From Roseiarcus sp. (lineage in GTDB: Bacteria; Pseudomonadota; Alphaproteobacteria; Rhizobiales; Beijerinckiaceae), in the NCBI GenBank assembly GCA_035606915.1, contig DATNDU010000008.1, forward strand, positions 12,857-76,856: 64,000 nucleotides of DNA, in the 5' to 3' direction. The notes below the pieces were generated by a model, which saw only the letters and a list, made by a program, of their open reading frames with translations, had not been told where the DNA came from and searched no databases. Below, in pieces: positions 19,541 to 26,374 of the stretch (positions are counted from its first letter, which is position 1; the number at the start of each line of letters is the position of its first letter). The translations under genes were made by a program, and so were the position numbers.

Positions 19541-19615
19541 GGGCGATTAGCTCAGCGGTAGAGCACTCCCTTCACACGGGAGGGGCCACAGGTTCGATCC
19601 CTGTATCGCCCACCA
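19541..19615 (+). tRNA. tRNA-Val(CAC)
   Basis: Cloverleaf: acceptor GGGCGAT/ATCGCCC, D arm GCTC/GAGC, anticodon stem CTCCC-TTCACAC-GGGAG, T arm ACAGG-TTCGATC-CCTGT, encoded CCA. Confidence 0.97.
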
Positions 19616-19798
19616 CGAGACCACTGGAATCGCTGACGATTTCCTGCCTAGACCTTCTGCACGACCAATCAAGGGTTTGTGGGCTCGGAATACGGCCTGC
19701 GAACTGAAATCGGGCCGATTTCTCCGTCACTGACGCCTGCTTTTGCAGAAAGTCTCTGTCGACAAAAATCGGTTTCCCGGAATGGAAGGCGTCCGTAG

Positions 19799-19816
19799 GT
19801 CGACATAGATCATTTC
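19799..19816. promoter_or_regulatory. Putative operator upstream of the MFS gene
   Basis: gtcgacatagatcatttc; 17/18 match to the reverse complement of 22504-22521. Confidence 0.55.
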
Positions 19817-20007
19817 CATTTCGTCGCTCAAACTTCGCGCTGAGAGCGCTAAAAAATCAGCTTGCGCCGCGATTGACGAAAGGATTTCATTCTGCATACA
19901 ATTTTCAATTGAGGCTCATTCCGAGCTTCGTAAACCGGAGGCTCTCCGCCTTGGCCATCGCAGCCCCAGCTTCGCCCCTCGTTCAGCGCTCCGCGGCGCC
20001 CAGCGAA

Positions 20008-21306
20008 ATGACGGACACCTCGCCGTTGACCAAAGGCCAGGTGAGCTACACCGCCGTCGTCGCCCTCTTCGCCTGGACCTTCGCGGTCTACGATCTCATC
20101 ACTTTCGGCAATCTGTTGCCGAAAATTCAGCAAGAGTTCGGCTGGTCGAACGCCGTCGCCTCCTATGTCGCGACGTTCGTCGGCCTGTCCTCGCTCGTCG
20201 TCGCTCTCGCCGTCGGTCCGGTGATCGATCGTTTGGGGCGGCGCTTCGCGCTCGTGCTGACGACGGGCGGCGCGGCGGTCAGTTCCGGCCTCGCCGCTTT
20301 TGCTATCGGCCCGGTGTCGCTCGTGCTGTTCCGCGCGCTCTCGGGCTTCGGCATGTCGGAGCAGGCGGTCAACGCGGCCTATCTCAACGAAGTGTTCGGC
20401 GCGCGCGCCAAGGGCCTGCTCTACGGCATCGTGCAAGCCGGATGGCCGCTCGGCGTGATGCTGTCCTCGGGGCTGGCCGCCTGGCTTTTGCCTGAGATCG
20501 GCTGGCGCGGCGTGTTCCTCGTCGCGACGTTCCCGCTGGTCGTGATTTTGCTGTTTCGCTTCGGCCTGCGCGAATCCCCCTATTTCGCCAAGCTCAAGCA
20601 TATCCGCGGGCTGCGCGCGCAAGGCGACGTCGCGGGTTCGCAGGAGTTGGCGAAGCGCTGGAGCCTGGACGTCTCCAACGACGACCGCGCCAACACCTAT
20701 GCCGAGTTGTTCACTCCGGCCTTGCGCCGTCAGTCGATCGCGCTCGGCGCCATGTTCTTCTTCAAGATCATCTCCGACTCGCAATTGACCGTGCTCGCCA
20801 CCTCCGTGCTTGGCCAAGCCAAGGGCATCGACCTGACGAGCGCGCTGTGGACGATCTTCTTCGGCAACGGCGTCGCGGTGCTCGGTTATCTGTTCCTGGG
20901 CTGGCTCGGCGACCGCATCGGCCGCCGCGAGACTGTGATCGTCGCCCAGACGCTGGCGGCGGTGATGATCTTTGTGCTGTTGTTCGTCGCCCAGAGCCTG
21001 ACGGCCGTCGTCATCGGCTATGCGCTGGTGCTGTTCTTCGCACAGGGCGCCGCGGCGCCGTTCTTCGCCTATGTCGGCGAATCGTTTCCGACCCGCGTGC
21101 GCGGCACTGGCGCGGCCTTCATCAACATCACCGGCCCGATCGGCGGCATTTTCGGACCGCTCGTCTATGGCGCCTTGCAGCAGGCGGGCGCAAGCCCGAC
21201 GGTCGCGGCGGCCTCAAGCGGCGTGGCGGCCCTCGTCGCCGCCGGCTGCATGTTGGCGGCCCGCTCCATCCGCCCCGGGCAGGAACTGACTGCGATCTCG
21301 CACTGA
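20008..21306 (+). CDS. MFS transporter
   Basis: About 12 hydrophobic segments, motif A GPVIDRLGRR repeated as GWLGDRIGRR, ESFPTRVRGTG. ATG 20008 chosen. Confidence 0.9.
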   Translation: MTDTSPLTKGQVSYTAVVALFAWTFAVYDLITFGNLLPKIQQEFGWSNAVASYVATFVGLSSLVVALAVGPVIDRLGRRFALVLTTGGAAVSSGLAAFAIGPVSLVLFRALSGFGMSEQAVNAAYLNEVFGARAKGLLYGIVQAGWPLGVMLSSGLAAWLLPEIGWRGVFLVATFPLVVILLFRFGLRESPYFAKLKHIRGLRAQGDVAGSQELAKRWSLDVSNDDRANTYAELFTPALRRQSIALGAMFFFKIISDSQLTVLATSVLGQAKGIDLTSALWTIFFGNGVAVLGYLFLGWLGDRIGRRETVIVAQTLAAVMIFVLLFVAQSLTAVVIGYALVLFFAQGAAAPFFAYVGESFPTRVRGTGAAFINITGPIGGIFGPLVYGALQQAGASPTVAAASSGVAALVAAGCMLAARSIRPGQELTAISH

Positions 21307-21427
21307 ACGCCTCGCCGGCGCGCTTCATCCGGTTTTCGAGCGAAGGGCCCGAAAACGATCGCGCGAAATTCTGGCGCAGAAAGAAAATCCCGCGCGAACG
21401 GAATACGGCTTTCTGCCGAAAGCCGTA

Positions 21428-22474
21428 TCACTTGCGCGCCGGCAGGCGCCCCTGATGACCCGTCAAATGCCCGTTCATCAATTCCCCCGCGCCCTTGGCG
21501 TCGCCCGCCGCGATGAGATCGATGAGCGCTGTGTGCTCCTCGATCGCGCAGGCGGGCGGCGCTCCGTCGTAGAGCAGCACCGCCAGCGACGTTTTGGCCG
21601 CAAGCTGCTGCACGAAGCCTTCGAGCAGGCGGTTTTCGCCGAGCGAGGCGAGAACCGAGTGAAACTCCGTCAGCAGATGCACGTAACGGCCGCGGTCGCC
21701 CGAGGCGCGCGCCGCTTGCTGCCGCTCGACATGCCGGCGCAGCGCGCGGATGTCGTGCGCCGTGCAATGGCGGCAGAGATCGCCGACGATCTCGCCTTCG
21801 ATCAGCCGCCGCGCCGCATAGGCCTGCTGCACCTCGGCGAGCGAGGGATTGGCGACGAAAGCGCCGCGGTTGCGATGCAGCGTGACGATGCCGGCGAAGG
21901 CGAGCCGGCGCAGCGCCTCGCGCACCAGCGTGCGGCCCGTGCCGAGCTTCTCGGCGATATGCGCCTCGCTCAGCTTCTGCCCGGGCTTGTAGCGCTCGGC
22001 GACGATCAGCGTCGCGATGGCGTTCGCCGCTGCGTCGTCGGAAGCCAAGCCGTGGAAGAGCCCGCCGCGGCCGAACTGGCGCGCTTCGCTCGGCAGCGCG
22101 CGCTCCCGCACAGGCGGCGGCTCGGCGCGGATCTTCATCGGCTCTCCGGCGCGCTTCAGCGCCTTGAGAATGGTTTCGGCCGACAGCGCCAGACCGTGAC
22201 GGCGCTCCAGTTCGGATTTCAGCCGGTGGACGCCAAGCCCCTCGTTCTGCCTGAGTTCGAGAATCAGGGCTTGCTCGCGCGCGAACACTTTCTGGTTCGG
22301 CGACGACGACGGTCTGCGGCTCGTGTCGGCCAGACCTTCCGGCCCCGCCTCCTGGTAGCGCCGCCACCATTTGCGCAAAGTTGGACGCGAAATGCCGAAG
22401 CGCGCGCACACGCGCCCGGCGCTGCCCGTCGCCTCGTAGGCTTCGATCCAGCGCAAGCGTTCCTCGATCGGCAT
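21428..22474 (-). CDS. Fusion of an IS481-type transposase HTH domain to a GntR wHTH + FCD regulator
   Basis: N-terminus ERLRWIEAY...VCARFGISRPTLRKWWRRYQEAGPEGLADTSRRPSSSPNQ; C-terminus YKPGQKLSEAHIAEKLGTGRTLVREALRRL...RNRGAFV plus FCD (FHSVL, EEHTALIDLI). No DDE domain. Confidence 0.85.
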   Translation of the reverse strand: MPIEERLRWIEAYEATGSAGRVCARFGISRPTLRKWWRRYQEAGPEGLADTSRRPSSSPNQKVFAREQALILELRQNEGLGVHRLKSELERRHGLALSAETILKALKRAGEPMKIRAEPPPVRERALPSEARQFGRGGLFHGLASDDAAANAIATLIVAERYKPGQKLSEAHIAEKLGTGRTLVREALRRLAFAGIVTLHRNRGAFVANPSLAEVQQAYAARRLIEGEIVGDLCRHCTAHDIRALRRHVERQQAARASGDRGRYVHLLTEFHSVLASLGENRLLEGFVQQLAAKTSLAVLLYDGAPPACAIEEHTALIDLIAAGDAKGAGELMNGHLTGHQGRLPARK

Positions 22475-22503
22475 CGGTTAGACTCGGGGCATAGGTTCGA
22501 CGC

Positions 22504-22521
22504 GAAATGATCTATGTAGAC
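22504..22521. promoter_or_regulatory. Putative operator in the divergent regulator/puuE promoter
   Basis: gaaatgatctatgtagac, inverted near-copy of 19799-19816. Confidence 0.55.
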
Positions 22522-22544
22522 TGTTTAATGACGGAGACCTCGCA

Positions 22545-23444
22545 ATGACAAGCGCCCCCGCCCGGGATTTCCGCGGCTATGGCGGCCACCCGCCCGATGT
22601 GGCCTGGCCCGGGCAGGCCCGGGTCGCCGTCTCCTTCGTCGTCAATTTCGAGGAGGGGGCGGAACTGTCCGTCACCGACGGCGACGAGCGCAACGAAGGC
22701 GCCTATGAGGCGGTCGAGGAAATCGTCGGTTCGCCGGATTTCTGCCAGGACTCGCATTTCGAATACGGCCCCCGCGCCGGCTGGCGGCGCGTCGCCGGCC
22801 TGCTCGCCGCGCACGGCGCACAGGCGACGCTCAACGCCTGCGGCCGCGCCGTCGAGCGCTCGCCCTGGCTCGCGCGCGAGGCGGTGAGCCAAGGCCATGA
22901 GGTGTCCTGCCACGGCTGGCGCTGGGAGCGACACGCGGGCATGAGCGAAGCCGTCGAGCGGCGCGCCATCGCGCTCACGGTAGAGGCGATCCGCGCTGCG
23001 ACGGGCGTCGCGCCGGTCGGCTGGCACACGCGCTCCGCGGCCTCGCTCAACACGCGCCGGCTGCTCAAGCAGCACGGCGGTTTCCTCTACGATAGCGACG
23101 CCTACAGCGACGATCTGCCATTCTTCGTCGAGGTCGAGGGCGAAAGCAGGCTCGTGCTGCCCTACGCCTTCGACACCAACGACATGAATTTTTTCCGCAC
23201 GCCGCGTTTCGTCACCGGACAGGATTTCGCCGATTACGTGATCGCCGCTTTCGACCGGCTCTGGCGCGAGGGCGCGAGCGCGCCGCGCATGTTGTCGATC
23301 GGCCTGCATTTGCGGATGATCGGCCGCCCGGGCCGCATCGGCGGGTTGGAGACGATCCTGGCGCATATGCGCCAGCGCGGCGGCGCCTGGATGGCCCGGC
23401 GCGACGCCATCGCCCGCCACTGGTTGGCCAATGTTGAGGCGTGA
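22545..23444 (+). CDS. Polysaccharide-deacetylase-fold hydrolase, PuuE-like allantoinase
   Basis: RDFRGYG...WPGQARVAVSFVVNFEEGAE, FEYGPRAG, HEVSCHGWRW, LPYAFDTND, SIGLHLRMIGRPGR. Confidence 0.85.
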   Translation: MTSAPARDFRGYGGHPPDVAWPGQARVAVSFVVNFEEGAELSVTDGDERNEGAYEAVEEIVGSPDFCQDSHFEYGPRAGWRRVAGLLAAHGAQATLNACGRAVERSPWLAREAVSQGHEVSCHGWRWERHAGMSEAVERRAIALTVEAIRAATGVAPVGWHTRSAASLNTRRLLKQHGGFLYDSDAYSDDLPFFVEVEGESRLVLPYAFDTNDMNFFRTPRFVTGQDFADYVIAAFDRLWREGASAPRMLSIGLHLRMIGRPGRIGGLETILAHMRQRGGAWMARRDAIARHWLANVEA

Positions 23445-23451
23445 GGCGTCC

Positions 23452-24147
23452 GTGCGCCGCCTCCTCATCATCAATCCCAACACCACCGAGGCGATGACGC
23501 AGCGTATCGCCGCCCAGGCGCGGCGCTTTGCGGCCCCCGATATGCGCATTGAGACGCGCACGGCGGCCTTCGGACATTCGGTGATCGCCAGCCGCGCGGC
23601 CTACGCCATCGCCGCTCACGCGGCGCTGGAGGCCTACGCGAGGGCGGGCGGCGGCTTCGACGCCGTCATCCTCGCCTGCTTCGGCGATCCCGGCCTGGAA
23701 GCGCTTCGCGAGGTCGCGAGCGAGCCGGTGTTCGGGCTTGCGGAAGCCTCGATCCGGGACGCCGACGGCTACGGCGAACCCTTCGCGATTCTGACTTTGG
23801 GCCGGGCCTGGATCGGAATGCTCGAAGAGCGCGTTCTGCTGGCGCGCGTTGGCGCGCCCTTCCTCGGCGTCTTCGCCGGCGAGGGAACCGGGCTCGACGC
23901 CGCGCACGACGCCGGCGCGGTCGTCGCGCGCCTTCAGGGGCTCGCCGACGCGGCGGTGCGCGCCGGCGCCGGGGCGCTCATCCTCGGCGGCGCCGCGCTC
24001 GCGGGCCTCACGGCGGAGTTGCGGTGCGAGGCGCGCCTCGTCGATTGCGTTGAGGCGACAATGCGCGCGGTGGCCGGCGCGCTCGCGAGCCAGGCCGGAT
24101 CCGTCGCGCCGCCGGGCTCCACCTGCCTCGCGCCGCCGTCGGAGTGA
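23452..24147 (+). CDS. Asp/Glu/hydantoin (allantoin) racemase family protein
   Basis: LIINPNTTEAMT, ILACFGDPGL, LILGGAAL (second catalytic Cys apparently replaced by Gly). GTG start 23452. Confidence 0.85.
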   Translation: MRRLLIINPNTTEAMTQRIAAQARRFAAPDMRIETRTAAFGHSVIASRAAYAIAAHAALEAYARAGGGFDAVILACFGDPGLEALREVASEPVFGLAEASIRDADGYGEPFAILTLGRAWIGMLEERVLLARVGAPFLGVFAGEGTGLDAAHDAGAVVARLQGLADAAVRAGAGALILGGAALAGLTAELRCEARLVDCVEATMRAVAGALASQAGSVAPPGSTCLAPPSE

Positions 24148-24572: not shown

Positions 24573-25256
24573 CTAGGCCACGCCATGGTTTGTAAAGAGG
24601 TTGCGGCTGACGGAGTCTATGTGGGTTCGCATGGCGCTTGCCGCCGCCTCGGCGTCGCGCCGCAACAGCGCCTCGACTATCGCTTTGTGCTCCTCGCAAT
24701 AAGTTTGCCGCCGCTGCGGGCTGAAGGATCGTCGTTTGATATCGCGCCATAGGTCTTGGCTTCGGATCAGGCGTAGGATCTCGTGTAGATGATTGAGCAA
24801 ATCGTTGCGTGACGCCGAGAAAATTCGTTGATGCAGCTCGGCGTCCCAATGCTCGAACGTTTCCATATCGACGGCTTCGACCGCGGCGGCGTGCGAGAGG
24901 GCGACTTCGTGAATGTCGTTGGCGCTGGCGTTTGTCGCGGCAAGGGCGGCGGCGCGCGGTTCGAAGATCTGCCGCACCGCCATCATGTCGATTGGACTCA
25001 CGCCCGTCAGTTTCTGAACAACGCTCATGAAATCGGGGCTGCCGCCATGGCGCAGAAAAGTGCCGCGTCCCACCTCACGGGTCAGCGAACCATCGGCGGC
25101 GATCTTGTCGATGGCGCCGCGCACGGTGTTTCTCGCCACCTTGTATTCCGCCGCCAGGTCGCGCTCGTTGGGAAGGCGGCGGCTATCGCTCCACTCGCCG
25201 GACTCTATGCGCCGGCGAAGCGATTGCTCGATTTCCGCGGCGATTAGTTTCGGCAT
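24573..25256 (-). CDS. GntR/FadR-family transcriptional regulator
   Basis: RLPNERDLAAEYKVARNTVRGAI...GRGTF plus FCD (DAELHQRIFSASRN, EEHKAIVEAL). Divergent from the FAH operon. Confidence 0.93.
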   Translation of the reverse strand: MPKLIAAEIEQSLRRRIESGEWSDSRRLPNERDLAAEYKVARNTVRGAIDKIAADGSLTREVGRGTFLRHGGSPDFMSVVQKLTGVSPIDMMAVRQIFEPRAAALAATNASANDIHEVALSHAAAVEAVDMETFEHWDAELHQRIFSASRNDLLNHLHEILRLIRSQDLWRDIKRRSFSPQRRQTYCEEHKAIVEALLRRDAEAAASAMRTHIDSVSRNLFTNHGVA

Positions 25257-25501: not shown

Positions 25502-26374
25502 ATGAAGATAGCGACTTATCGCGTCGGCGCCGAGCGTCGGGTCGGCCTGATCGATGAGGCGCGCCAGACGGTTTCACCATTCGATATCCCGGAAGCCGAA
25601 GCGCGGCAGGGCGTTCTCGCCCTCATCGACCGAGCGACCCTGCCGCGCCTGCTTTCGCCCATGCCCTTGAAGGAAGCTGTCCTCGAAGCGCCGATCCCCC
25701 GACCCCGGCGCAACATCTACTGCGTCGGCAAGAACTATCACGAACACGCAAAGGAATTCGCGTCGAGCGGCTTCGATTCCGGCGCCAGCGCCGGCGCGGT
25801 GCCGAAGCATCCGATCATTTTTTCGAAAGTGCCGGAATGCGTGATCGCGCATCGCCATCCGGTTTCGATCGACCGCAATGTCTCGAACGCCATCGACTAC
25901 GAAGCCGAACTCGGCGTAATCATCGGCAAGGGCGGGCGGGGCATCCGGCCGTCCAACGCGCTCGACCATATCTGGGGCTATACGATCATCAACGACGTGA
26001 CCGCCCGCGATCTGCAAGGCCTCTATAGTCAATGGTTGATCGGCAAATCCCAGGACACATTCTGTCCGATGGGCCCCTGGGCCGTTACGAAAGACGAGAT
26101 CGATCTCGGCGATACAAAAATAAAGTGCTGGATCAACGGTGAACTGCGCCAGAACGCCAACGTCCGCGACCTCATTTTCGACGTCCCGACAATCATCGCG
26201 ACGATTTCCGCCGGCGTTACGCTGATGCCGGGCGACGTGATCGCCACCGGCACTCCCGTGGGGGTTGGCATCGGCTTCAAACCACCGAAATACCTTGCCC
26301 CCGGCGACGTCGCGCGTATCGAGATTTCCGGCATCGGCGTATTGGAAAACGAAATCCAGGAGTATCGGGCGTGA
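25502..26374 (+). CDS. Fumarylacetoacetate hydrolase family protein
   Basis: CVGKNYHEH, IFSKVP, DYEAELGVIIGK, INDVTARDLQ, GKSQDTFCPMGP, GDVIATGTP. Confidence 0.93.
   Translation: MKIATYRVGAERRVGLIDEARQTVSPFDIPEAEARQGVLALIDRATLPRLLSPMPLKEAVLEAPIPRPRRNIYCVGKNYHEHAKEFASSGFDSGASAGAVPKHPIIFSKVPECVIAHRHPVSIDRNVSNAIDYEAELGVIIGKGGRGIRPSNALDHIWGYTIINDVTARDLQGLYSQWLIGKSQDTFCPMGPWAVTKDEIDLGDTKIKCWINGELRQNANVRDLIFDVPTIIATISAGVTLMPGDVIATGTPVGVGIGFKPPKYLAPGDVARIEISGIGVLENEIQEYRA

What the first reader, a model, noticed from the sequence alone, without database searches (positions are those of the whole stretch)
21428..22474. Transposase DNA-binding domain apparently domesticated: IS481-type HTH fused in frame to a GntR/FCD regulator
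Seen: the first ~110 aa (ERLRWIEAY...RFGISRPTLRKWWRRYQEAGPEGLADTSRRPSSSPNQ...ETILKALKR) read like an IS481-family transposase N-terminus. A Pro-rich linker then leads to an intact GntR wHTH and FCD domain. There is no DDE domain and no frameshift or stop at the junction. Inference: a regulator with two DNA-binding heads, possibly looping the two matching sites at 19799 and 22504, or an insertion scar that became fixed.
Basis: partly seen in the sequence, partly recalled or inferred. Interest (0 to 1): 0.7.

Follow-up and report, generated by a model that had tools for sequence, protein, structure and literature searches.

The report
Transposase DNA-binding head domesticated into GntR regulator
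A rare but conserved alphaproteobacterial regulator has kept the DNA-binding head of an IS481 transposase in front of a normal GntR/FCD sensor, and the two promoters it sits between still carry sequences that look like that transposon's terminal repeats, so protein and binding sites seem to have been domesticated together.

Summary
ORF 21428-22474 (-) encodes 348 aa in four parts. Residues 1-~116 are an IS481-type bipartite HTH with no DDE domain. Residues 116-145 are a disordered linker. A complete GntR wHTH and an FCD domain follow.

It is not a strain-specific scar. About 75 protein clusters (44-92% identity) from several alphaproteobacterial orders share the architecture. Their N-domains form one group apart from true transposases, and dN/dS of the N-domain (0.08-0.16) is as low as for the GntR and FCD parts. 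The junction is clean: transposase residues 1-~117 join residue 2 of a free-standing GntR whose closest relatives already sit beside PuuE-like and racemase genes.

They occur nowhere else in the 4.8-Mb genome. They match the inner part of IS481 terminal inverted repeats (ISEc18 and others), lack the TGT tip, and point inward like IRL and IRR. A separate GntR-type operator (TTGCATACAA) overlaps the -10 of the MFS promoter.

Best reading: a ligand-sensing repressor with two DNA-binding heads, using co-opted IR sites plus its ancestral operator. All evidence is computational, and I found no publication on it. Interest 0.62.

The parts
21428..22474 (-). Fusion regulator gene, 348 aa: IS481-type HTH + linker + GntR wHTH + FCD
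   Evidence: ORF; Pfam and NCBIfam domains; about 75 full-length homologue clusters; AF2 model
22127..22474 (-). Transposase-derived N-domain (aa 1-~116): bipartite HTH_28 + HTH_32, paired-domain-like
   Evidence: NF033577 positions 2-117, E 1.1e-24. 45-61% identical to N-termini of real IS481 transposases. Recognition helix ISRPTLRKWWRRY is identical to theirs. Foldseek hits to Pax5/6 paired domain (TM 0.62-0.69), TnsB, Tc3 and the SETMAR DNA-binding domain. dN/dS 0.08-0.16
22040..22126 (-). Fusion junction and flexible linker (aa ~117-145)
   Evidence: pLDDT below 50 for residues 116-145. The free-standing GntR homologue of L025 aligns from its residue 2 to fusion residue 119; the ISEc18 transposase alignment ends near residue 118
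21854..22030 (-). GntR winged helix-turn-helix (aa 149-207)
   Evidence: PF00392, E 7e-18; Foldseek to GntR/FCD crystal structures
21461..21823 (-). FCD effector-binding and dimerisation domain (aa 218-338)
   Evidence: PF07729, E 1.3e-24. Invariant H248, H272, D303, H314 and H336 across 34 homologues. TM 0.8 to 2hs5, 4p9f and 9isw
22504..22521 (-). IS481-IR-like site ('IRL position'). It lies 29 nt upstream of the regulator ATG and 23 nt upstream of the PuuE-like ATG, in the centre of the 70-bp divergent intergenic region
   Evidence: Top hit in the 64-kb window of a PWM built only from IS481 IRs (14.1 bits). The orthologous site is conserved in relatives as GTCTATATAGATYRTTTC, 11-29 nt before the start codon. 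This is the same position and orientation as IRL relative to the tnp ATG in IS481 elements
19799..19816 (+). IS481-IR-like site ('IRR orientation'), centred about 89 bp upstream of the centre of the GntR-type operator at the MFS promoter
   Evidence: Second-best PWM hit in the window (12.9 bits). The orthologous sites in relatives score 17-33.5 bits, against a maximum of 16.5 in 50 control loci. The L002 copy shares 16/16 nt with an IS481 IRR
19873..19902 (+). Sigma-70-type promoter of the MFS gene (TTGACG-18-TACAAT)
   Evidence: The only promoter-like hit in 19600-22700; conserved in all relatives
19893..19903 (+). GntR/FadR-type operator-like decamer CTGCATACAAT (relatives: TTGCATACAA) overlapping the -10 box
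   Evidence: Exactly one copy per 13-kb fusion locus, always at this promoter. The closest non-fusion relatives carry two TTGTATACAA palindromes upstream of their GntR gene
19951..21306 (+). MFS transporter. The likely start is TTG at 19951 with a GGAGG RBS; the mechanical ORF begins at 19873, inside the promoter
   Evidence: PF07690, 7e-50; 72-86% identical syntenic orthologues; 450-aa gene call in L096
22545..23444 (+). PuuE-like polysaccharide-deacetylase-fold amidohydrolase, divergent from the regulator
   Evidence: PF01522; TIGR03212 allantoinase PuuE at 296 bits, below the 425-bit cut-off; syntenic in most fusion loci
23431..24147 (+). Asp/Glu/hydantoin racemase, overlapping the PuuE-like gene by 14 nt
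   Evidence: PF01177, 3.9e-39; syntenic
21387..21442 (.). Hairpin/terminator between the convergent MFS and regulator genes
   Evidence: Inverted repeat I7; terminator-like hit at 21404-21387

Best explanation
The gene encodes a one-component, ligand-sensing regulator with two different DNA-binding heads.

Likely history (inferred): an IS481-family insertion sequence landed just upstream of, and in the same direction as, the GntR/FCD regulator gene of a PuuE-like amidohydrolase/racemase catabolic cluster. A deletion then removed the DDE catalytic domain and the right end of the IS. This joined transposase residues 1-~117 in frame to residue 2 of the regulator.

The transposase head is a bipartite, paired-domain-like HTH. 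It kept its specificity for the inner, non-catalytic part of the IS terminal repeat. Two such repeat-derived sites, which lack the TGT cleavage tip, now act as operators. One is the former IRL in the 70-bp regulator/PuuE divergent promoter region. The other lies about 89 bp upstream of the MFS promoter.

The GntR head keeps the ancestral TTGTATACAA-type operator, which overlaps the -10 box of the MFS promoter.

Inferred working: without ligand, the FCD-mediated dimer occupies these sites and represses the transporter gene, the PuuE-like/racemase operon and its own gene. A hydantoin- or allantoin-like or related small acid would bind the FCD domain and relieve repression.

Shown here: the architecture, its conservation, selection on it, the junction, and the identity and conservation of both site types. 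Inferred: which head binds which site, repression as opposed to activation, and the ligand.
For: Architecture and intactness.

Conservation: about 75 full-length clusters at 44-92% identity, including Labrys, Acidimangrovimonas, Acidocella, Roseomonas/Neoroseomonas, and Roseiarcus and Phyllobacteriaceae MAGs.

Single origin not rejected: the 34 fusion N-domains form one side of a branch (86/85) against 20 transposases.

Purifying selection: N-domain dN/dS 0.08-0.16, GntR 0.15-0.26, FCD 0.09-0.17. There are 13 invariant N-domain residues in 34 sequences. The HTH recognition helix is identical to that of real IS481 transposases.

Junction.

Synteny: racemase <- PuuE-like <- | -> REG <- MFS in L002-L014, L019 and L096-L098. 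The closest non-fusion GntRs (46-48% identity) also sit next to racemase and PuuE paralogues.

IR identity of the sites: five independent IS481 elements, ISEc18 among them, have IRs of the form TGTGYGATTCAYAGACATCGTTTCAA. A PWM of their inner 19 nt gives the two window sites as the top two of about 128,000 positions. It places the top hit at the MFS-upstream or regulator-upstream site in all 12 loci of the window's clade, at 17.4-33.5 bits. In 50 control loci the per-locus maximum averages 10.2 and reaches 16.5; real IRs score 28-37.

Geometry: position and orientation relative to the start codon match IRL in real ISs.

GntR operator.

Spacing between the IR-like site and the operator is 86-90 bp in 14 of 16 loci. 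The two exceptions are 77 and 110 bp, about -1 and +2 helical turns.

The genome holds no other copy of the N-domain at E<=1e-3, so there is no resident IS481 for it to regulate.
Against: The window's own two sites score only 12.9-14.1 bits, and chance hits of up to 18.6 bits exist elsewhere in the genome. Their IR identity therefore rests on orthology with the much better copies in relatives.

In the more distant fusion clades (L013-L015, L018-L023, L028, L031) the IR PWM is not significant.

The core of the regulator-upstream site is a palindrome (TCTATATAGA), which a GntR dimer could also bind.

TTGCATACAA doubles as an extended -10 box, so its conservation could be promoter conservation alone. 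One further copy lies at an unrelated promoter (C84:12019).

The origin of the second, MFS-side IR-like site is unexplained by the simple insertion-plus-deletion scenario.

dS is near saturation (1.1-1.9), so the dN/dS values are rough.
Confidence: 0.6

Rival explanations
1. The fusion is real and selected, but the conserved 18-mers are ordinary GntR-family palindromic operators bound by the wHTH head. Their likeness to IS481 repeats is coincidence. The N-domain would then do something else, such as binding other DNA, dimerisation, or contact with another protein.
For: The regulator-upstream site contains a perfect palindrome in relatives (TCTATATAGA; GTCTATAGAC in L006). Distant clades have GATGTCnnGACATC-type palindromes typical of FadR-like operators. 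The window's own PWM scores are modest.
Against: The match to IS481 IRs extends through the non-palindromic ATCGTTTCAA part, with 16/16 nt in L002 and up to 33.5 bits, the range of genuine IRs. The closest non-fusion relatives have a near-identical GntR recognition helix (RTLVRQAL against RTLVREAL) but use TTGTATACAA operators and have no such site. The fusion loci keep a TTGCATACAA as well. Position and orientation copy IRL.
Confidence: 0.17
2. The N-domain mainly serves as an anti-transposon device. A catalytically dead IR-binding protein would occupy the ends of incoming IS481 elements and block their transposition, like truncated transposase inhibitors. The two local sites would be only historical leftovers.
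For: The recognition helix is identical to that of active IS481 transposases. The genome has no IS481 copy detectable with the N-domain. N-terminal transposase fragments are known transposition inhibitors in other IS families (established knowledge for IS1 InsA and IS911 OrfA).
Against: Leftover sites would decay, yet both are conserved in sequence, position and spacing across loci whose synonymous sites are saturated. The domain is always tied to one catabolic cluster and a ligand sensor, which an immunity function does not need. The family is rare (2 of 201 genomes of the order) although IS481 elements are common.
Confidence: 0.08
3. The N-terminal part is not translated in vivo, or is dispensable. 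The working product would be a GntR-only protein from an internal start (M113, preceded by GGAGAG), and the upstream frame stays open by chance or recent origin.
For: An ATG at codon 113 with a Shine-Dalgarno-like GGAGAG 3-5 nt upstream is conserved in the closest clade.
Against: The frame is open, and dN/dS is 0.08-0.16 across lineages with dS above 1. The N-domain is kept in clades that lack M113. Invariant HTH residues are preserved.
Confidence: 0.05

Closest known systems
GntR-family regulators of the FadR/FCD subfamily (e.g. VanR/Atu1419, McbR/YncC, TM0439, PmiR, NanR)
   Same: Residues 146-348 form a complete wHTH + FCD module. Foldseek gives TM 0.7-0.8 and E about 1e-8 to these structures. 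A TTGTATACAA-like palindromic operator sits at a target promoter. The gene lies beside the catabolic and transport genes it should control.
   Different: The wHTH is not at the N-terminus. A 116-residue second DNA-binding domain of transposase origin and a 30-residue flexible linker precede it. A second, non-GntR-type site class is conserved at its promoters.
IS481-family insertion sequences (ISEc18, IS481) and their transposases
   Same: The N-terminal bipartite HTH is 45-61% identical, with an identical recognition helix. The two flanking sites match the inner 18-19 nt of the IRs and point inward like IRL and IRR. The IRL-like site keeps its distance to the start codon.
   Different: There is no DDE/rve domain. 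The TGT tips of the repeats are gone. No target duplication was found by eye. It is single copy in the genome. Synteny is stable across genera. It is therefore not a mobile element.
Eukaryotic transposase-derived DNA-binding proteins: SETMAR (binds dispersed Hsmar1 TIRs), Pax paired domain, CENP-B
   Same: A transposase end-binding domain is reused as a host DNA-binding module, and for SETMAR the old terminal repeats serve as the binding sites. The N-domain model superposes on the Pax5/Pax6 paired domains (TM 0.62-0.69) and on the SETMAR, Tc3 and Mos1 DNA-binding domains (TM 0.52-0.55).
   Different: This case is bacterial, from a different transposon family (IS481, not Tc1/mariner or pogo). 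The domain is fused to a small-molecule sensor and controls only two local promoters. The likeness is of fold and logic; no sequence homology was detectable.
N-terminal transposase-derived regulators encoded inside ISs (IS1 InsA, IS911 OrfA, IS2 InsA)
   Same: An HTH-only product binds the IR, which overlaps the element's own promoter, and represses it. This could be the pre-adaptation behind autoregulation at the regulator-upstream site (established knowledge, not tested here).
   Different: Those proteins stay part of a mobile element and regulate transposition. Here the domain is fixed in a chromosomal catabolic cluster and coupled to a ligand sensor.

Membership tests
GntR family, FadR/FCD subfamily | GntR-type winged HTH (PF00392) | tested here: met
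   PF00392 at residues 149-207, E 7e-18, 64.5 bits against a cut-off of 27
GntR family, FadR/FCD subfamily | All-helical FCD effector/dimerisation domain C-terminal to the wHTH | tested here: met
   PF07729 at residues 218-338, E 1.3e-24. The AF2 model has six helices. Foldseek TM(target) is 0.77-0.81 to 2hs5, 4p9f, 9isw and 3ihu
GntR family, FadR/FCD subfamily | wHTH located at the N-terminus of the protein | tested here: not met
   The wHTH starts at residue 149, and 116 residues of a different DNA-binding domain precede it
GntR family, FadR/FCD subfamily | Palindromic operator of the T-GT-N-AC-A type near regulated genes | tested here: inconclusive
   TTGCATACAA (window: CTGCATACAAT, 19893-19903) occurs once per locus at the MFS -10 box. 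Non-fusion relatives have 2 x TTGTATACAA. The site also serves as a -10 box, and binding was not tested
GntR family, FadR/FCD subfamily | Metal/ligand-binding His/Asp residues of the FCD pocket | tested here: inconclusive
   H248, H272, D303, H314 and H336 are invariant in 34 homologues. Their geometry in the model was not examined and the ligand is unknown
IS481-family transposase / insertion sequence | N-terminal HTH (HTH_28/HTH_32) end-binding domain | tested here: met
   NF033577 positions 2-117, E 1.1e-24; Pfam; alignment with six real transposases
IS481-family transposase / insertion sequence | DDE (rve) catalytic domain | tested here: not met
   No PF00665/PF13683 hit. The NCBIfam match stops at model position 117 of 284
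IS481-family transposase / insertion sequence | Terminal inverted repeats beginning with TGT | tested here: not met
   The inner 18-19 nt match, but the outer 7 nt (TGTGYGA) are replaced by unrelated sequence at both sites
IS481-family transposase / insertion sequence | Multiple copies / mobility | tested here: not met
   There is a single copy of the N-domain and of the site pair in the genome. Synteny is conserved across genera
Domesticated transposase-derived DNA-binding proteins (SETMAR/Pax-like logic) | Transposase-derived domain kept under purifying selection without catalytic function | tested here: met
   dN/dS 0.08-0.16; one group apart from the transposases; no DDE domain
Domesticated transposase-derived DNA-binding proteins (SETMAR/Pax-like logic) | Binding to former transposon ends used as cis-regulatory sites | not testable with these tools
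   The sites are IR-like and conserved. Actual binding needs EMSA or ChIP

The most novel reading that the evidence does not exclude
The whole 2.7-kb module, [IR-like site]-regulator-MFS-[IR-like site], is a fossil transposon whose 'transposase' swapped its catalytic domain for a ligand sensor. The FCD dimer would bring the two former ends together in a paired-end-complex-like loop that silences both flanking promoters at once. At the MFS promoter it would also be tied to the GntR operator through helically phased spacing. Ligand binding would open the loop. That would be transposon synapsis reused as a small-molecule-controlled repression loop.
Probability: 0.12. Interest if true: 0.85.

Novelty: new variant of a known kind. 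Interest (0 to 1): 0.62.

Why it matters
Reuse of transposase DNA-binding domains together with their terminal repeats as gene-regulatory parts is a textbook theme in eukaryotes (Pax, SETMAR, CENP-B, FHY3). I found no published bacterial example of this kind in five literature searches.

Here both halves of such an event can be read from sequence: the protein junction, to within a few residues, and the repeat-derived operators. Living relatives of both parents, the free-standing GntR and active IS481 elements such as ISEc18, are available for comparison.

This makes an open question directly testable: how does a new DNA-binding specificity get wired into an existing one-component regulator? 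The family also offers a natural two-headed repressor for studying cooperative or looping control. On the practical side, it corrects annotation: these genes are labelled 'FCD domain-containing protein' or 'regulator/transposase' and could be mistaken for IS debris.

Tried and rejected
1. A lead from memory was rejected. I recalled that rc(TGCATACAA) = TTGTATGCA lies near the IS481 left end, which would have made the -10 region the IR relic. The closest non-fusion relatives use TTGTATACAA palindromes as operators, and real IS481 IRs of the relevant subgroup look different. The GntR-operator reading explains the element better.

2. The first PWM, built from four IRs with a uniform background, ranked the window's sites only 3rd and 8th, one of them in the wrong register. 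It was replaced by a 10-IR, GC-corrected PWM.

4. The all-against-all representative search with the N-domain, followed by Pfam on the longer hits, found fragments and multi-HTH repeat proteins. No other clear effector-domain fusion appeared.

5. A sequence search of the PDB with the N-domain gave no hit.

6. GC-rich IS481 elements (L086-L090) gave no clean IR pairs with the ungapped scan, and L093 gave none either. They were left out of the PWM.

8. The earlier notes of this scan hold nothing on this locus.

9. The reading 'recent scar or pseudogene' was rejected on conservation and dN/dS.
Full report
**1. The observation**

The minus-strand ORF 21428..22474 is uninterrupted and encodes 348 aa. 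Pfam finds HTH_28 (5-55), HTH_32 (32-104), GntR (149-207) and FCD (218-338), all well above their cut-offs, and no integrase/DDE domain. NCBIfam aligns residues 6-121 with positions 2-117 of the 284-position IS481 transposase model at E 1.1e-24.

An AlphaFold2 model built on 34 homologues (pLDDT 83) shows four elements:
- two three-helix bundles (3-48 and 65-108) joined by a flexible loop;
- a disordered stretch at 116-145;
- a winged HTH;
- a six-helix FCD domain.

The C-terminal two thirds superpose on solved GntR/FCD regulators such as 2hs5, 4p9f, 9isw and 7u5q.

**2. Not a private accident**

A search of 5.8 billion proteins returned about 75 clusters with the same full architecture at 44-92% identity. 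They include proteins from Labrys monachus, Acidimangrovimonas sediminis, Acidocella aminolytica and a Rhizobiaceae MAG. A scan of 185,579 species genomes gave about 22 full-length loci, mostly Roseiarcus-like and other alphaproteobacterial MAGs, plus Neoroseomonas and Roseomonas.

The family is nevertheless rare and patchy. Only 2 of 201 genomes sampled from the window's order carry it, and four other genera of the same family lack it.

In a maximum-likelihood tree of the N-domain, the 34 fusion proteins form one side of a branch (support 86/85) against 20 genuine IS481 transposases. A single origin is therefore not rejected.

Pairwise Nei-Gojobori estimates against nine relatives give these dN/dS ranges:

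| Region | dN/dS |
|---|---|
| N-domain | 0.08-0.16 |
| GntR wHTH | 0.15-0.26 |
| FCD | 0.09-0.17 |

dS is near saturation (1.1-1.9), so the numbers are rough. Even so, the N-domain is at least as constrained as the canonical domains. Thirteen N-domain residues are invariant in 34 sequences. The first recognition helix, ISRPTLRKWWRRY, is letter-for-letter that of active IS481 transposases.

**3. The junction**

The closest free-standing relative, a 232-aa GntR/FCD protein from a Stellaceae MAG (L025), aligns from its residue 2 to fusion residue 119 and runs to the end at 46% identity. The ISEc18 transposase aligns with fusion residues 3 to about 118, after which it continues into its catalytic domain.

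The chimera is therefore tnp(1-~117)::gntR(2-end). The simplest history is an IS inserted just upstream of, and co-directional with, the regulator gene. A deletion then ran from within tnp to the regulator's start codon and removed the DDE domain and IRR.

**4. Context**

Beside the regulator lie a divergent PuuE-like polysaccharide-deacetylase-fold gene (22545-23444), an overlapping Asp/Glu/hydantoin racemase gene (23431-24147) and a convergent MFS transporter gene. This order is kept, with 70-88% protein identity for the PuuE-like enzyme and MFS and 49-62% for the racemase, in L002-L014 and L019; L096-L098 have the same gene order by gene calls and Pfam.

In the Roseomonas-type clade an ABC importer replaces the MFS. 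In Acidocella the neighbours differ.

The nearest non-fusion GntRs (L025-L029) sit directly upstream of a racemase and two PuuE paralogues. The sensor half was therefore already the regulator of this kind of pathway.

The PuuE-like enzyme scores 296 bits against a 425-bit cut-off for true allantoinase PuuE. The substrate is probably a related cyclic amide or ureide but remains unknown.

**5. The two matching sites are transposon ends**

The 18-mers at 19799 (+) and 22504 (-) are 17/18 identical. They are the only matches in the window, with 0 of 100 shuffles giving two, and the only copies in the 4.82-Mb genome.

I recovered the ends of real IS481-family elements whose transposases are closest to the N-domain: two cyanobacterial ISs (L083, L085), ISEc18 from E. 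coli plasmids, and ISs from Halioglobus, Mycetohabitans and Paraburkholderia plasmids. Their repeats share TGTGYGATTCAYAGACATCGTTTCAA.

The site conserved upstream of the MFS gene in the fusion loci reads GTCCAYAGACATCATTTCAA. The L002 copy shares 16 consecutive nucleotides with the IRR of L085.

A weight matrix built only from the inner 19 nt of ten such repeats gave these results:

| Target scanned | Score (bits) |
|---|---|
| Window site at 22502 (-), best of about 128,000 positions | 14.1 |
| Window site at 19800 (+), second best | 12.9 |
| Top hit in each of the 12 loci of the window's clade, always at the MFS-upstream or regulator-upstream site | 17.4-33.5 |
| Per-locus maximum in 50 control loci of equal size | mean 10.2, SD 3.0, highest 16.5 |
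| Genuine repeats scored against the matrix | 28-37 |

The outer seven nucleotides, with the TGT tip needed for cleavage in this family (PMC10045372 for TGT...ACA termini), are not conserved.

Both sites read 'inward', as IRL and IRR do. The regulator-side site lies 11-29 nt before the start codon, where IRL lies in real elements.

Two caveats apply. The window's own copies are diverged, and on a genome-wide scale their scores would not stand out, since chance hits reach 18.6 bits. The more distant fusion clades give no significant match.

**6. A second site type for the second head**

Upstream of the non-fusion GntR genes are two TTGTATACAA palindromes 19 bp apart, a classical FadR/GntR-type operator pair. 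In the fusion loci a one-mismatch version, TTGCATACAA, occurs exactly once per 13 kb. It always overlaps the -10 box of the strong MFS promoter. In the window this is TTGACG-18-TACAAT at 19873-19902, with CTGCATACAAT at 19893-19903.

The GntR recognition helix is nearly unchanged between fusion and non-fusion proteins. The centre-to-centre distance between the IR-like site and this operator is 86-90 bp in 14 of 16 loci. The two exceptions, 77 and 110 bp, differ by roughly one and two helical turns. This hints at a phased, cooperative arrangement but does not prove it.

**7. Fold of the N-domain**

Modelled alone (pLDDT 85), the N-domain superposes best on several bipartite HTH DNA-binding domains:
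- the Pax5 and Pax6 paired domains (TM 0.62-0.69);
- the end-binding domains of TnsB, Tc3, Mos1 and IstA;
- the SETMAR domain bound to its Hsmar1 terminal repeat.

Foldseek E-values are weak (about 1e-2) and the PDB holds no sequence relative. In such transposases this module reads the inner part of the terminal repeat (established knowledge for Tc3, Mos1 and IS911). That is the part conserved here.

**8. Mechanism proposed**

Shown: a conserved, selected protein with two intact DNA-binding modules of different origin, and two conserved site classes, each matching the natural target of one module, placed at the only two promoter regions of the cluster.

Inferred:
- The N-head binds the repeat-derived sites and the wHTH binds TTGCATACAA.
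- The dimer represses the MFS gene, the PuuE-like/racemase operon and itself.
- Ligand binding to the FCD domain relieves this.

The IS insertion would have displaced the ancestral autoregulatory operators. Keeping the transposase head and IRL would then have restored autoregulation at once, because IS-encoded N-terminal proteins commonly repress the promoter in IRL (known for IS1, IS2 and IS911; not tested for IS481).

The origin of the MFS-side site is unexplained. A second IS end, a once-larger element, or selection de novo are all possible.

**9. Rivals**

- (a) The 18-mers are plain GntR operators and the IS likeness is chance. The non-palindromic match, the different operators of the non-fusion relatives and the IRL-like geometry argue against this.
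- (b) The head is an anti-IS481 immunity factor. The conserved local sites and the strict link to one catabolic cluster argue against this.
- (c) Only an internal-start product is made. Selection on the N-domain, and clades lacking M113, argue against this.

**10. Novelty**

Public databases hold these proteins under generic names ('FCD domain-containing protein', 'GntR family transcriptional regulator/transposase'). Five full-text searches found no paper describing the architecture or a bacterial regulator using co-opted IS repeats in this way (also 81).

I rate it a new variant of a known kind: a GntR/FCD regulator with an added, domesticated transposase head. It parallels eukaryotic cases such as SETMAR.

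Noticed in passing
window 19541-19615: A tRNA-Val(CAC) gene lies 184 bp upstream of the MFS-side IR-like site, at the edge of the conserved cluster. Sequence upstream of the site is not conserved between loci, so the cluster may sit in a variable, island-like position.
   Followed up: partly
window 19873-19953: The mechanical ORF for the MFS gene starts at TTG 19873, inside its own promoter. A TTG at 19951 preceded by GGAGG fits the 450-aa gene call of the 92%-identity relative L096.
   Followed up: partly
window 24573-25256 (-): A second, ordinary 227-aa GntR/FadR-type regulator lies right after the racemase gene, facing the long operon that starts at 25502. Two GntR-family regulators of different build are therefore neighbours.
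   Followed up: no
genome contig C84:12019 (outside the window): The only exact TTGCATACAA in the genome sits in a TTGACA-type promoter between an AraC-like gene and a 485-aa gene (MSETDDKIRCDACPVMC...). It may be a further target of the GntR head or simply a similar -10 region.
   Followed up: partly
L012:6001-8478: In this MAG the regulator frame has no stop at the usual place and reads on for 825 codons. This is either an assembly error or a lost stop codon.
   Followed up: no
P0220 (761 aa) and P0259 (608 aa): These are proteins made of 7-8 tandem transposase-type HTH_28/HTH_23 units with no other domain, an odd multi-HTH architecture.
   Followed up: partly
L006:5964-5984: In this relative the regulator-side site is a perfect palindrome core (GTCTATAGAC) and scores best on the opposite strand. 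The site can therefore flip or symmetrise during evolution.
   Followed up: no
L096:5417-5700 and L008:2530-2625: The distance between the IR-like site and the -10 operator departs from the usual 86-90 bp only in these two loci: 110 bp in L096 and 77 bp in L008.
   Followed up: partly
L085:355-400 and 1375-1420: The cyanobacterial IS481 element is flanked by CCTAGG on both sides. From my own knowledge, this fits the NCTAGN target duplication described for IS481 and supports its use as a genuine reference element.
   Followed up: no
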